Assembly: GCA_963703345.1 (NCBI GenBank)
Contig: OY969814.1
Coordinates: 1,472,001-1,536,000 of the forward strand
Direction: 5' to 3'
Origin: an uncultured Chloroflexia bacterium
Lineage (GTDB): Bacteria > Chloroflexota > Dehalococcoidia > DSTF01 > JALHUB01
Length of the DNA stretch: 64,000 bases
A model generated the notes under the pieces. The model saw only the letters and a list, made by a program, of their open reading frames with translations. It ran no database searches and was not told where the DNA came from. Positions 30,271 through 35,602 of the stretch are shown piece after piece; the stretch's first letter is position 1; each line of letters begins with the position of its first letter. Made by a program: the position numbers and the translations under genes.

Positions 30271-30709
30271 GCTCGACGAGCTCTACAAAGACCTGATCCT
30301 CGACCACTACCGGCGGCCGCGAAACCGTCACTCCGTCGCGGAGCCGAAGGTTGTCGGCGAGGGCTATAACCCTCTCTGTGGCGATGAGATCGCCGTCGAG
30401 GCCCACATCGAGGGCGACGTTCTTGCCGACGTTGGCTTTCAGGGGCGCGGCTGCTCCCTCAGCCAGGCCTCCGGCTCCATGATGACCGAGGCGATCAAGG
30501 GGAAGACGCTTCAGGAAGCGCGGTCGCTCATCGCCCAGTTCACGCGCATGATGACCAATCCGGCATCTCCGGCGTCCGAAGAACTTGGCGACCTGGAGGC
30601 ATTCATCGGCGTCGCCAAGTACCCGGTCCGCGTGAAGTGCGCCACGCTCGCCTGGCACGCTCTAATAGACCTGCTGAACCAGTACGAGCAGACGCAGGAG
30701 AGTTGCTAG
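30248..30709 (+). CDS. sufU: SufU/NifU-type protein
   Basis: NPLCGD, G.GC..SQAS and RVKCATL motifs. Confidence 0.92.
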   Translation: MSSAAEPELDELYKDLILDHYRRPRNRHSVAEPKVVGEGYNPLCGDEIAVEAHIEGDVLADVGFQGRGCSLSQASGSMMTEAIKGKTLQEARSLIAQFTRMMTNPASPASEELGDLEAFIGVAKYPVRVKCATLAWHALIDLLNQYEQTQESC

Positions 30710-30711
30710 CC

Positions 30712-31017
30712 GTGCTCTTCTCGGAAGAAGTGGTCCGCGAACGCCTGCGCGACGTGCTCGATCCGGAGATGCGTCTCAGCGTCGTCGACCTTGGTCTCAT
30801 CTACGCGATCGACATTGAAGGCGACACTGTGCGCGTCACCTATACTCTTACCAGCCCCGCCTGCCCTCTCGGCGGCCTCATCGCCGAGCAGATCCGTCGC
30901 GCCGTGCTGGATATCCCGGGCGTGCGGGACATCGAGCTGTTGCTCACGTTCAGCCCGCCCTGGGACCCAAACACCATGGCCAGCGAAGACGCGCGGATGG
31001 AGATGGGCATCTGGTAG
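30712..31017 (+). CDS. sufT: DUF59/PaaD-like Fe-S maturation factor
   Basis: V.DPE, VVDLGLIY, TLTSPACP and PPW motifs. Confidence 0.85.
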   Translation: MLFSEEVVRERLRDVLDPEMRLSVVDLGLIYAIDIEGDTVRVTYTLTSPACPLGGLIAEQIRRAVLDIPGVRDIELLLTFSPPWDPNTMASEDARMEMGIW

Positions 31018-31350
31018 GTTGCGCCCGCTCCGCGCGGACCTTCCCAGGCTGTTGAAGAACTACCCTAGCCGAGACTTTCTAGTCTCGGCGCCGAACCTGC
31101 GGCCAGGCTGGGAAGCGTGGCCTACGCGCCTTTCGAGCTTCGGCTTTCTGCGATTTCGGCCGTTCAGGGGCTATCCCCCAAGTTAAGTCGGGTGCTGACA
31201 CCCTTCATCCAGCCCTCCTGAGTATCGACATACAAACAGACCCTTAATGGTTGGAAGCGGTAGCCAGGAGGATGGCTGCCGCAAGCCCCGCCCAACGGCG
31301 GGAGACGGGCCGCGTCTTACAGGGCCCCGCTCCGAATAAGGAGGGAGTGA

Positions 31351-31938
31351 ATGAGCAGACTACTCAAGCTATTCAGAAAGGCAACCGGGAAAGAGGAAGG
31401 CATCACCGGTCTGGAGACCGCCATCATATTGATTGCCTTCGTAGTTGTGGCGACCGTCTTCGCGTTCGTCGTGCTGAGCACAGGTCTATTCAGCTCTGAG
31501 CGAGGCAAAGAAGCGGTCTACGCAGGACTCGCGAAGACCGAGGGTTCGCTGGAGTTGAGGGGAGCCGTTATCGCTAACACCGACGGCTCGATCGTGGACA
31601 CTCTCGTCTTCGACCTGGCCAACGCCGCCGGCGGCGAACCCGTCAACCTCGACCCGACCGCCGTCAGCAACAAGATGGTCATCGCCTACCGCGACGCCAA
31701 CACCACCATCCCCAGCATCGCCTGGGACGTCAACTTCCTGGTGCCAGCAACGCCGCCAGCGAACAACAGCTACCTGCTAATGGAAGGTGAGCTGGCGGAA
31801 ATCACGGTGGACATCACGGCTGAGGCTCTTGGGCCGAACCAGCCGTTCACCATTGAGGTGAAGCCACCGCTCGGCGGTACCATGACCATCGCCAGGACGA
31901 CACCTGCCGGCCTGGATACAGTGGTTGACCTCCATTAA
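31351..31938 (+). CDS. arlB: Archaellin (archaeal-type flagellin ArlB/FlaB)
   Basis: Class III signal ..KEEG|ITGLETAIILIAFVVVA.VFAF.VLSTG; C-terminal GE..EI and F.IEVKPP.G motifs. Confidence 0.9.
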   Translation: MSRLLKLFRKATGKEEGITGLETAIILIAFVVVATVFAFVVLSTGLFSSERGKEAVYAGLAKTEGSLELRGAVIANTDGSIVDTLVFDLANAAGGEPVNLDPTAVSNKMVIAYRDANTTIPSIAWDVNFLVPATPPANNSYLLMEGELAEITVDITAEALGPNQPFTIEVKPPLGGTMTIARTTPAGLDTVVDLH

Positions 31939-32008
31939 GGAGCAACTGCTCTCCTTAAGGAAAGCCAGGCGGACGCGGCCGTAGGATTCCAACAATAGAG
32001 CCCAAAAT

Positions 32009-32040
32009 CTGGGCACCCGCTCGAAAGAGTGGGTGCCCAG
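32009..32040 (+). terminator. Strong hairpin after the archaellin gene
   Basis: CTGGGCACCCGCTC-GAAA-GAGTGGGTGCCCAG. Confidence 0.6.
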
Positions 32041-32200
32041 TCATCTCCTTGAAGCCCCCTTTCACCGGCTCTGCACGCTTCGCTCAAACACGTCCCGAGG
32101 CACCCACGATAGGCCTGTGCTGCCAGTGGACATTTAGCCGGAAGGCGTGCTATAGATATCCACAATCGGGAATCGAAGCAGGAAATAGGAGGTTTCTTTC

Positions 32201-32851
32201 GTGGCAAACGACATCGAGGCAAGACTCGAAGCCCTGAAAAGAGAGGTGGAGGGGCTGAAGGGCAAGGCCGTCACGGTCACGGAGACTATTGCGAACCCCG
32301 CGCCTCTGGGTCTCGCCGGCTTTGGTCTCACCACGCTGCTGCTCAACGTGGTGAACGCAGGCATCATCAACAAGACCGACATTGGGATGGTGTTGCCCGT
32401 CGGTCTCTTCTACGGCGGTCTCGCGCAGTTGCTGGCCGGCCAGTGGGAGTTCAAGAAGAACAACACCTTTGGCGCGACCGCCTTCACGTCCTTCGGCGCC
32501 TTCTGGCTGTCCTTCGCTGTGATGGAGATACTGATCGGCAACAAAATTCTGGGTCCGGTATCGGCTCCGGGCGGCATCACGGTGTTCCTGATCGGATGGG
32601 GAATCTTCACCACCTACATGTTTGTCGGCACCATGAGGATCTCAGTGGCGCTGATGGTCGTGTTCGCAGCGCTGGCGATTCTCTTCTATCTGCTGGCCTG
32701 GGGCGCACACAGCGGAAACTCGAATGTCGAACACTTCGCTGGCTATGAAGGTCTCTTCACTGCCGGCGCGGCGCTGTACGCCTCATTCGCCCAGATCGTC
32801 AACGAGACCTGGGGCCGCGTACTCCTGCCCCTGGGCGTAATCAAGAAATAG
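32201..32851 (+). CDS. satP: GPR1/FUN34/YaaH acetate uptake transporter
   Basis: ANPAPLGLAGF, FYGG.AQ and NTFGATAF motifs. Confidence 0.9.
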   Translation: MANDIEARLEALKREVEGLKGKAVTVTETIANPAPLGLAGFGLTTLLLNVVNAGIINKTDIGMVLPVGLFYGGLAQLLAGQWEFKKNNTFGATAFTSFGAFWLSFAVMEILIGNKILGPVSAPGGITVFLIGWGIFTTYMFVGTMRISVALMVVFAALAILFYLLAWGAHSGNSNVEHFAGYEGLFTAGAALYASFAQIVNETWGRVLLPLGVIKK

Positions 32852-34606: not shown

Positions 34607-35602
34607 TCAGACAGTCCAGACGCTCTGAAGCCGCTTGATGTCCATCGTGCCACTGTTGGCGATATTTTCGGCCGGAATACCGGCTTCCTCGGCCGCGGCC
34701 AGCGGGTTCAGGCCGCCATCAAGAATAAGGCCCACCTTGTTCAGCCCAACGGGTATCTGGCAAACAGGCTGGCTGGGGTAGCCGGTGACGACCACGCCGC
34801 CGATTCCCACGCCCCGCAGCTTCTCGATGATCTCCTCAGCCATCGGTTTCGCCGCACCCGGTATCTCGCGGAAATTCGCGAGGATCTTGCCGTTGCCGTT
34901 GATAGCCGCCTCGCGCACGCTGGTCATGCCCGCCTTGATGTAGGCTAACGAGGGGTCTAGCGACGAGCCGGCGTAGTGGATTATGGCGACGAATCGCCGC
35001 GGCTGGCCATCACGCACTTCCAGGATGCCGCCGAAGCGGGAGTCCATCGGAATGCCGGCCTTGAGCAGCACGCCGTTGATCGTCGCGCTGCAAACGGTTG
35101 CCAGCCCGACCCTACCTTCGGGGACGATAACGTCACCTAGCTTCTCGCCTTCGTCGGCCACGGCAACGAGCTCACTCACGCAGACGCCGGCGACAAACGC
35201 GTCCTTCATCGCCGCCAGCGCCTTCCGGAACCTGTCCTTCGGGAAAATCGACGTGTTTATCACGACCTCGCCGGTGCCGCGGGTCGGGTCCAGCGTCGTC
35301 TGAAAGGCAAGCGAGGCGATGCGTTCAATGACGAAACCGAGCTGCTCCGGCGCCAGCGCGTTCGACAGCTCTTCGTGCCCCCGGCGCGTCAGCATCCGGC
35401 CATCCCTGCCCAGCGGCTGGGTGAAGCCGCGGGCATCGGTGATCCGCAAGTGATAGCGGACCGTGCGCTCGTTCAGGTAGATGCCCTGGTTCTCTAGCTC
35501 GCGGGCGATGCTGATCGAGCCCAGCGGCTCTTTCGACTCGCTGAGCACCTTCAGTATCGCGACCGTCTTTCTCTCCGTGTCGCGGGCTTCGCTCTCCAAC
35601 AT
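34607..35602 (-). CDS. nrpR: NrpR-family regulator (wHTH plus a single DUF128/NRD domain)
   Basis: ERTVRYHL, G.V..NTS, CS.TINGVLL..GIP, Y.GSSLDP, ANFREIP and GGLNP motifs. Confidence 0.85.
   Translation of the reverse strand: MLESEARDTERKTVAILKVLSESKEPLGSISIARELENQGIYLNERTVRYHLRITDARGFTQPLGRDGRMLTRRGHEELSNALAPEQLGFVIERIASLAFQTTLDPTRGTGEVVINTSIFPKDRFRKALAAMKDAFVAGVCVSELVAVADEGEKLGDVIVPEGRVGLATVCSATINGVLLKAGIPMDSRFGGILEVRDGQPRRFVAIIHYAGSSLDPSLAYIKAGMTSVREAAINGNGKILANFREIPGAAKPMAEEIIEKLRGVGIGGVVVTGYPSQPVCQIPVGLNKVGLILDGGLNPLAAAEEAGIPAENIANSGTMDIKRLQSVWTV

What the first reader, a model, noticed from the sequence alone, without database searches (positions are those of the whole stretch)
31351..31938. 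Stand-alone archaellin in a bacterial chromosome
Seen: a clear archaellin N-terminus (G|ITGLETAIILIAFVVVA) between suf and satP, monocistronic, with no arlF/G/H/I/J or peptidase in 64 kb. The -2/-3 residues are acidic (EE) rather than the archaeal K/R, and there are two N-X-S/T sequons (NTT, NNS). Established: archaellum genes are known from some Chloroflexota, so the family is not new. The dispersed orphan copy and its processing and regulation are the open questions.
Basis: partly seen in the sequence, partly recalled or inferred. Interest (0 to 1): 0.7.

Follow-up and report, generated by a model that had tools for sequence, protein, structure and literature searches.

The report
Co-regulated satellite archaellin in a bacterium
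This is an intact second copy of the filament protein of an archaeal-type swimming motor in a Chloroflexota bacterium whose motor genes lie elsewhere on the same chromosome (a published kind of system), and the two copies share an upstream DNA motif that likely puts both under bacterial flagellar-style control.

Summary
The ORF is a real archaellin (PF01917, 90 bits; best structural match is L. aerophila ArlB, 9i5h), but it is not stand-alone. The same single-contig chromosome carries an 82%-identical arlB heading a full arlB-X-G-F-H-I-J cluster 266 kb away, plus an A24 prepilin peptidase. Chloroflexota archaella and scattered extra flaB copies are published, and this scan has noted satellite archaellins with sigma-28-type promoters on other DNA. 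What appears new (all computational): (1) the suf-arlB-satP satellite is kept in 13 of 41 genomes, five genera; (2) satellite and operon copies look partly homogenised by gene conversion (AU p=0.005); (3) both promoters share a tandem GGGTG-N4-CACCC box that tracks a NarL-type regulator, which itself has a sigma-28-type promoter; (4) a structured leader and a 9-bp helix joining the 5' and 3' UTRs, with one compensatory change, bracket the ORF. Verdict: a known system with an undescribed, untested regulatory design.

The parts
31351..31938 (+). arlB satellite archaellin, 195 aa; 82% identical to the operon arlB at C1:1769376
31351..31401 (+). Class III leader (17 aa, ends KEEG); predicted cleavage before I18
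   Evidence: mature L. aerophila ArlB starts at the same ITxLETAI motif
31402..31539 (+). N-terminal filament-core helix (mature residues 1-46); the most homogenised part between the two copies
31166..31179 (.). Box 1, degenerate palindrome AGGGG-CTAT-CCCCC; candidate operator
31190..31203 (.). Box 2, palindrome GGGTG-CTGA-CACCC, 24 bp after box 1; the same tandem pair lies upstream of the operon arlB
31204..31231 (+). Putative sigma-28-family promoter TTCA-N16-ATCGACAT (weak -35, central CGA kept); inferred
   Evidence: WhiG consensus in bioRxiv 10.64898/2026.01.14.699351
31235..31350 (+). Conserved structured leader (predicted 5' UTR): hairpin 31257-31282 with covariation and a GGA-containing loop, hairpin 31287-31302, SD 31338-31345
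31308..31316 (+). 5' arm GGCCGCGTC of the predicted long-range closing helix
31972..31980 (+). 3' arm GACGCGGCC, exact reverse complement of the 5' arm
32009..32040 (+). Conserved 14-bp hairpin without a U tail; likely 3'-end protection or terminator
31699..31707 (+). Sequon NTT (residues 117-119); the operon copy reads STN here; likely unused
31762..31770 (+). Sequon NNS (residues 138-140), beside a PATP insertion shared only by this genome's two copies; likely unused
30637..31017 (+). Upstream neighbour: last suf gene (PF01883); conserved synteny
32201..32851 (+). Downstream neighbour: satP acetate transporter, with its own promoter-like site at 32127-32157

Best explanation
It is an intact satellite archaellin gene whose product is likely cleaved by the genome's A24 prepilin peptidase and likely built into the archaellum by the ArlG/F/H/I/J motor encoded 266 kb away, probably as a separately transcribed, high-output source of filament subunit switched on together with the operon copy. 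Shown: family, fold (predicted model), intact leader, motor and peptidase genes in the genome, conserved synteny, shared upstream motif. Inferred steps: (a) a FliA/WhiG sigma transcribes the NarL-type regulator that lies back-to-back with the arl operon; (b) that regulator binds the tandem GGGTG-N4-CACCC boxes and activates both arlB promoters, which have a sigma-28-like CGA core but weak -35 elements; (c) the satellite mRNA is closed by a 5'-3' helix and a 3' hairpin that raise its stability; (d) occasional gene conversion keeps the filament-core halves of the two copies compatible while surface loops diverge. Odds: genuine archaellum subunit using the distant motor about 0.85; co-regulation through the boxes about 0.65; this regulator and sigma-28 being the agents about 0.45; closing helix real in vivo about 0.5.
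For: Family and fold: pLDDT 86; 9i5h best, E 3e-17. Machinery: ArlH and ArlI over NCBIfam cut-offs, ArlG, ArlF and ArlJ below cut-off but in arl2 order; peptidase with both catalytic Asp motifs. Synteny: both flanks seen in 10 genomes, one flank in 3; the leader model hits once in the same 13 of 41 genomes (11 of them were training rows). Boxes: a matrix trained on other genomes' satellite sites ranks this genome's operon site second (15.6, next 11.0), and the reverse ranks the satellite next after the operon site; box score >=16/20 in 33 of 105 arlB upstream windows versus 7 of 300 sampled controls, 5 of them the divergent regulator itself; the exact double box occurs once in 9 of 41 genomes, beside arlB, all 9 among the 20 with the regulator, control pattern 0. 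Sigma-28: TIGR02479 over cut-off in this genome; TAAA-N15-CCCGATAA upstream of the regulator; sites with <=1 mismatch in 9 of 105 arlB windows and 9 of 695 control windows, all nine the regulator's orthologues. Conversion: satellite clade rejected, AU p=0.0048; by-genome site patterns exceed by-locus in 33 of 36 genome pairs; paralogue 4-fold divergence 0.10, 0.24, 0.24 in G012, G013, G015 against 0.41-0.63 for flanking genes to any other genome. RNA: leader z=-4.9; 4 of 9 pairs of hairpin 1 change on both sides; closing helix core p>=0.67 in 10 of 11 predicted mRNAs, with a C-G to U-A change in G010.
Against: No expression or binding data. This satellite's own promoter does not match the canonical sigma-28 pattern, and genome-wide the pattern is only modestly enriched (10 sites versus 6, 1, 2 in three shuffles). 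FliA-like sigmas are in all 41 genomes, including those without an archaellum, so co-occurrence says nothing. The box training sites were picked with the shared consensus (partly circular), and in one direction the margin is thin (22.8-25.0 versus 22.2 for a repeat elsewhere in the genome). The regulator's phospho-acceptor is Asn here, Asp in 9 close relatives and Gly in 5 distant ones. For this genome, synonymous evidence of recent conversion is equivocal (0.32 between copies, 0.31 to the nearest relatives' flanks), three close species group by locus, and the 227-nt identical tract in G012 could be an assembly artefact. The closing helix appeared in only 3 of 8 satellites when a longer upstream window was folded, is absent in G017 and has a mismatch in G015. 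The metal-site residues of L. aerophila ArlB are largely lost here.
Confidence: 0.65

Rival explanations
1. Ecoparalog: the satellite is expressed under different conditions from the operon copy and builds an alternative filament, as arlA2 and arlB do in Haloarcula marismortui.
For: Separate locus with its own leader and promoter context; the surface halves diverge (identity in the second half of the gene falls to 47-67% in several genomes); precedent in PMC10117864 passages.
Against: Both copies carry the same tandem box at the same 24-bp spacing and the same 20-nt distance to the CGA motif.
Confidence: 0.15
2. Co-regulated, but by another agent: the boxes are bound by a different factor or by a repressor, the promoter uses another sigma, and the 5'/3' complementary words are DNA-level sites, not an RNA helix.
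For: No binding data; 5 other NarL-type or sigma candidates seen in passing in this genome; the words are nearly invariant, which says little about pairing.
Against: The boxes track this one regulator across families f1 and f4 and were not found where it is not found; one compensatory change in the helix.
Confidence: 0.1
3. Silent donor for surface variation: the satellite is a reservoir whose variable loops are copied into the expressed operon copy, for example to escape filament-binding phages.
For: Signs of sequence exchange between the copies.
Against: It keeps an intact leader, a strong SD, a conserved promoter-like motif and structured UTRs in five genera; exchange is strongest in the conserved core, weakest in the surface half.
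Confidence: 0.05
4. It is a pilin for one of the genome's two Tad loci or its type IVa pilus, or a non-motility surface protein.
For: Those systems exist in the genome; metal-site residues are degenerate.
Against: 82% identity to the operon arlB; only archaellin or archaellin-N-terminus families match; all 13 satellite-bearing genomes have ArlI or part of it.
Confidence: 0.04
5. Assembly chimera or archaeal contamination.
For: GC dips slightly to 0.59-0.60 around the gene.
Against: Single contig, 0.59% contamination; same neighbours in 12 other genomes.
Confidence: 0.01

Closest known systems
ArlB of the Litorilinea aerophila archaellum (PDB 9i5h; PMC12488501)
   Same: Same family and fold, 49% structural identity, same cleavage motif, arlG-before-arlF cluster and peptidase outside the locus.
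   Different: There the paper describes arlB within one locus; here a second copy is 266 kb away. Metal ligands D121/D127/E131/E134 map to T/S/M/E here. The main text has no hits for FliA, promoter, transcription, LuxR or response regulator.
Scattered flaB copies of SAR202 'Ca. Lucifugimonas marina' (PMC10444878)
   Same: Extra archaellin genes away from the flaGFHIJ cluster in a Dehalococcoidia genome, with a PF01478 peptidase.
   Different: Six tandem plus six scattered copies there, one plus one here; the passages read say nothing on synteny, regulation or conversion.
Unlinked archaellins of haloarchaea (H. salinarum arlA/arlB loci; H. marismortui arlA2 ecoparalog; PMC10117864)
   Same: Archaellin genes at a second locus using one motor.
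   Different: Archaeal transcription and N-glycosylation there; a bacterial sigma and NarL-type regulator are predicted here, and no OST was found.
Sigma-28 (FliA/WhiG) regulons: flagellin genes; WhiG to WhiI; WhiG control of type IV pili in Rubrobacter (bioRxiv 10.64898/2026.01.14.699351)
   Same: Sigma-28 driving an orphan response regulator and a type IV filament; conserved central CGA.
   Different: The predicted target here is a horizontally acquired archaeal rotary filament, and the GGGTG-N4-CACCC double box turned up in none of my searches.
Concerted evolution of bacterial flagellin paralogues (fla in Alteromonadales; PMC6053082)
   Same: Paralogues closer within than between genomes.
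   Different: That paper has no hit for archaellin or flaB; homogenisation here is partial and mainly in the core helix.

Membership tests
Archaellin ArlB (PF01917) | Profile match over the curated cut-off | tested here: met
   90.3 bits versus 29.5, model positions 1-161 of 162. NCBIfam PRK08541 is matched only weakly, 22.6 versus 210.
Archaellin ArlB (PF01917) | Class III leader: charged -2/-3, Gly -1, hydrophobic helix, Gly +3 | tested here: met
   KEEG|ITG; TIGR02537 29.7 versus 20; acidic or basic allowed.
Archaellin ArlB (PF01917) | Long N-terminal helix plus beta-sandwich head | tested here: met
   Predicted model H3-46 plus 8 strands; top Foldseek hits are all archaella.
Archaellin ArlB (PF01917) | Acidic metal site in the head (D121, D127, E131, E134 in L. 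aerophila) | tested here: not met
   Only the E134 equivalent is kept; the S/M/E combination is 1 of 64. A common feature, not a membership criterion in the papers read; the operon copy has lost it too.
Archaellin ArlB (PF01917) | Cleavage and incorporation into a rotating filament | not testable with these tools
   Needs proteomics and microscopy.
Chloroflexota arl2-type archaellum | arlB, arlG, arlF, arlH, arlI, arlJ in one locus, G before F | tested here: met
   C1:1769376-1775869; ArlG, F and J score below their archaeal cut-offs.
Chloroflexota arl2-type archaellum | Class III peptidase elsewhere in the genome; no bacterial flagellum | tested here: met
   PF01478 at C1:1855465; flagellin PF00669 not found in 41 of 41 genomes.
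N-glycosylated archaellin | AglB/PglB oligosaccharyltransferase and conserved sequons | tested here: not met
   No PF02516 match in this genome, 95.85% complete; only weak partial matches in 21 of 41 relatives; sequons vary.
Sigma-28 (FliA/WhiG) regulon | TAAA-N15/16-GCCGATAA promoter directly upstream | tested here: inconclusive
   Satellite has TTCA-N16-ATCGACAT, not canonical; the divergent regulator has a 1-mismatch site.
Known RNA family | Rfam match for the leader or 3' region | tested here: not met
   No match in 31000-32200 at E<=1.

The most novel reading that the evidence does not exclude
After acquiring the archaellum from archaea, these Dehalococcoidia rebuilt a flagellum-like expression hierarchy for it from bacterial parts: sigma-28 switches on a dedicated NarL-type activator, which fires the motor operon and a satellite 'late' archaellin gene through a new tandem-palindrome operator. 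The satellite mRNA is clamped end to end by a long-range helix for high output, and gene conversion keeps the two subunits able to co-assemble.
Probability: 0.3. Interest if true: 0.7.

Novelty: new variant of a known kind. Interest (0 to 1): 0.42.

Why it matters
How a multi-gene archaeal machine came under bacterial transcriptional control is not addressed in the papers I read on the Chloroflexota archaellum. This locus yields a named candidate regulator, a 38-bp operator, a promoter and an RNA helix, each testable by EMSA, reporter or in vitro transcription without culturing the organism. The protein itself and the fact that it is dispersed are ordinary for this class.

Tried and rejected
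Acidic -2/-3 as an anomaly: rejected. N-glycosylation at the sequons: rejected as unlikely. Archaeal PibD/ArlK C-terminal domain PF06847: not found. FliW and CheW: not found, so the CsrA-FliW flagellin switch and a chemotaxis link have no support beyond CsrA itself and GGA motifs in the leader, which are not kept in three relatives. Sigma-70 promoter or U-tailed terminator on the + strand: none. Rfam: nothing relevant. Leader model: one hit per genome, always this locus, so no wider cis-regulatory family among the 41 genomes. 5'-3' complementarity in the operon copies: at chance level in 11 of 11; among 85 other arlB loci 12 had 9 nt or more, which I do not count as support. Sequencing runs: no RNA holder listed. 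Helix 1 was entered out of register, so that row is void; helices 2-4 stand. FliA co-occurrence is uninformative. PMC6098224 passages gave nothing relevant. No complex prediction was run.

Full report
1. Observation. The ORF at 31351-31938 (+) encodes 195 aa beginning MSRLLKLFRKATGKEEG|ITGLETAIILIAFVVVA. It lies 333 nt after the last gene of a suf cluster and 262 nt before satP. It matches PF01917 at 90.3 bits (cut-off 29.5), TIGR02537 and the L. aerophila ArlB chain 9i5h at E 1.5e-44. An AlphaFold2 model from a 37-row alignment (pLDDT 86) has a 44-residue helix and a beta-sandwich; its best Foldseek hit is 9i5h and the next dozen are archaella. The identification is secure.

2. It is not alone in the genome. 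The assembly is one contig of 2.28 Mb, 95.85% complete, 0.59% contaminated; its closest relatives by this protein are titled Dehalococcoidia or Chloroflexia/Chloroflexota MAGs. A second archaellin, 82% identical, starts at C1:1769376, 266 kb away. It heads arlB, an unassigned 262-aa ORF, arlG, arlF, arlH, arlI, arlJ, a small acidic ORF and an amidase. ArlH and ArlI pass their NCBIfam cut-offs; ArlG, ArlF and ArlJ match below cut-off. One PF01478 peptidase lies at C1:1855240 with DxxxxxxP and GLGD motifs; a separate short A24 N-terminal-domain ORF sits in the type IVa pilus locus. No PF06847, flagellin, FliW or CheW was found. This fits PMC12488501 (I read parts 1-3 of 9, term passages and a supplement search; one supplement was unreadable and one cut): 243 of 3,780 Chloroflexota genomes have the machinery, the peptidase is outside the locus, and L. 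aerophila swims with it. Scattered extra flaB copies are reported for SAR202 (PMC10444878, passages).

3. Among 78 archaellins in this genome and the loci, -1 is G in 78, -3 is E in 69, Q in 5, D in 4, and -2 is R 27, E 18, S 9, D 8, K 5, other 11. The genome's type IVa pilin also reads RGEAG|F, and a review legend marks these positions as acidic or basic in archaea (PMC10117864, passages). The sequons NTT and NNS are absent from the operon copy and vary among relatives; no STT3-family gene was found here, and relatives give only weak partial hits (21 of 41, best 30.6 bits). The solved bacterial filament shows likely O-glycans. A Wzy_C plus TPR membrane protein 2.7 kb downstream of arlJ is a candidate O-transferase; that PglL/PilO-type enzymes carry Wzy_C is recalled, not tested.

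4. An old, conserved satellite. Of 40 relatives, 33 have a match to this protein and 27 have ArlI over cut-off. The sufT-arlB-satP arrangement is seen with both flanks in 10 genomes including this one and with one flank in G007, G012 and G017: 13 of 41, five genera of one family. Three other genera of the family have tandem copies at the operon instead. Many more distant Dehalococcoidia loci have arlB with no arl gene in the flanks fetched, so satellites are common in the class.

5. Partial concerted evolution. With copies labelled by synteny beforehand, a tree of 19 proteins joins this genome's two copies (98/91) and does not separate satellites from operon copies. A satellite clade is rejected (AU p=0.0048), and by-genome site patterns exceed by-locus patterns in 33 of 36 genome pairs, 32 of 36 at synonymous sites; the pairs are not independent. 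Four-fold-site divergence between paralogues is 0.10, 0.24 and 0.24 in G012, G013 and G015, below the 0.41-0.63 that separates their flanking genes from any other genome. Both copies here share a PATP insertion found in none of the other 17 rows. Against: G002, G003 and G008 group by locus; G006's copies are far apart (0.54); for this genome the paralogue distance (0.32) equals the flank distance to its nearest relatives (0.31); and G012's 227-nt identical tract could be an assembly artefact. Leaders keep locus-specific starts. Reading: occasional conversion, mostly in the core helix. Precedent exists for bacterial flagellin (PMC6053082, passages); a search for archaellin plus gene conversion listed 4 papers, none on Chloroflexota by title, not read.

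6. A shared operator. Alignments of 11 satellite and 10 operon upstream regions show two 14-bp palindromes of consensus GGGTG-N4-CACCC, 24 bp apart, followed after 20 nt by xxCGA in both sets (two rows were mis-registered). A matrix from other genomes' satellite sites ranks this genome's operon site second of all positions; the reverse ranks the satellite site next after the operon site, by a thin margin over a repeat elsewhere in the genome (site choice used the shared consensus). A score of 16 of 20 or more occurs in 33 of 105 arlB upstream windows and 7 of 300 sampled control windows (of 695): five are the divergent regulator, two are other ORFs in one arl locus. The exact double box occurs once in 9 of 41 genomes, beside an arlB, with no control hits; all nine are among the 20 genomes with a close orthologue of the NarL/LuxR-type regulator that lies back-to-back with the operon. 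Kinship inflates this agreement. The regulator's phospho-acceptor is N here, D in 9 close and G in 5 distant orthologues, so it may work without phosphorylation.

7. Sigma-28. The genome has two FliA/WhiG-type sigmas (201 and 185.5 bits, cut-off 189.6) and CsrA next to the first, although no flagellin was found in any of 41 genomes. The regulator gene is preceded by TAAA-N15-CCCGATAA. Sites with at most one mismatch are in 9 of 105 arlB windows, in other families, and in 9 of 695 control windows, all orthologues of this regulator. The satellite here has TTCA-N16-ATCGACAT directly after box 2: not canonical, but with the central CGA and close to the WhiG1 -35 CTCA given in bioRxiv 10.64898/2026.01.14.699351 (passages; supplements closed), which also reports WhiG driving the orphan regulator WhiI and type IV pili. 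A box abutting a weak -35 is the layout of activator-dependent promoters (recalled). Genome-wide enrichment of the canonical site is modest and FliA is in all 41 genomes. Searches for archaellum+FliA+Chloroflexota (0 papers), Chloroflexota+archaellum+transcriptional regulation (2 listed, unrelated by title) and Dehalococcoidia+flagell+fliA (1 listed, not read), and term searches in PMC12488501 and PMC13319060, found no account of this; most subscription papers are outside the library. Earlier notes of this scan report sigma-28-type promoters on other satellites, seen.

8. RNA design. The predicted leader (31235-31350) folds at z=-4.9. In 11 sequences hairpin 1 has 4 of 9 pairs changed on both sides and 99% of cells paired. 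No Rfam family matches. A near-invariant leader word, GGCCGCGTC, is the exact reverse complement of a near-invariant word 34 nt after the stop codon. It is a perfect 9-mer in 10 of 12 satellites, including G010 where both sides change; G015 has a mismatch and G017 lacks the 3' arm; 2-7 of 100 shuffles reach 9 per locus. Folding from the predicted start gives a core pairing probability of 0.67 or more in 10 of 11, but a longer upstream window gave it in the minimum-energy fold of only 3 of 8. A conserved 14-bp hairpin without a U tail follows. The operon copies lack such a pair. A search for archaellin mRNA UTR stability returned 0 papers.

9. Mechanism and verdict. Most likely the satellite is a separately transcribed filament gene, switched on with the motor operon through the shared boxes, stabilised at the RNA level, processed by the A24 peptidase and assembled by the distant motor; conversion keeps the core compatible. 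Steps up to gene content, synteny and motif sharing are shown; binding, transcription, stability and assembly are inferred. The protein is a member of a known family in a known system; the regulatory layout is a new, untested variant. Interest 0.42.

Noticed in passing
L127:9075-11467 (C1:187075-189467): FliA/WhiG-type sigma facing csrA, with a histidine kinase and a NarL regulator nearby, in a genome without flagellin or FliW; a GCCGATAA word lies upstream of csrA. A second FliA-like sigma at C1:1612208 precedes an HD-domain phosphodiesterase-like gene.
   Followed up: partly
L128:5933-6280 (-): A 115-aa protein with two partial CsrA matches: possibly a single-chain tandem CsrA.
   Followed up: no
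L129:7985-8320 and L007:1276-1929: Prepilin peptidase apparently split: the zinc-binding A24 N-terminal domain is a short ORF in the type IVa pilus locus and the catalytic domain is 485 kb away.
   Followed up: partly
L133:537-3104: Wzy_C plus TPR membrane protein just downstream of the arl cluster, also beside it in 4 related loci; candidate O-glycosyltransferase for archaellin.
   Followed up: partly
L005:16873-18249: A small very acidic ORF and an Amidase_3 gene follow arlJ in the same direction, conserved in the family; may open the cell wall for the motor.
   Followed up: partly
L134:2726-4480 (-): GAF plus HD-domain (c-di-GMP phosphodiesterase-like) gene with a 1-mismatch sigma-28 site 69 nt upstream, about 21 kb from the arl cluster.
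   Followed up: no
window 31750-31791 and L005 equivalent: Both of this genome's archaellins have lost most acidic metal ligands of the head; the operon copy has Lys at the position that is Glu in 62 of 64 sequences.
   Followed up: partly
L109, L110, L111: In two other genera a tandem arlB copy has a different 10-nt 5'/3' complementary pair (CCGTTCCGCC and GGCGGAACGG), the 3' arm inside a hairpin loop: possibly the same RNA design with other letters.
   Followed up: partly
L107 and L108 (G010): In this relative the satellite lies only about 10 kb from the operon copy, on the opposite strand, which may mark the original duplication site.
   Followed up: no
G017: Both arlB copies are frameshifted; sequencing error or decay was not resolved.
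   Followed up: no
window 34607-35602 (-): NrpR-family nitrogen regulator (PF01995), a family mostly known from methanogenic archaea (recalled), 2.7 kb from the satellite and syntenic in relatives.
   Followed up: no
C1:1669864-1670660: Five or more ~153-nt repeats that score weakly against the box matrix; they look like a coding repeat.
   Followed up: no
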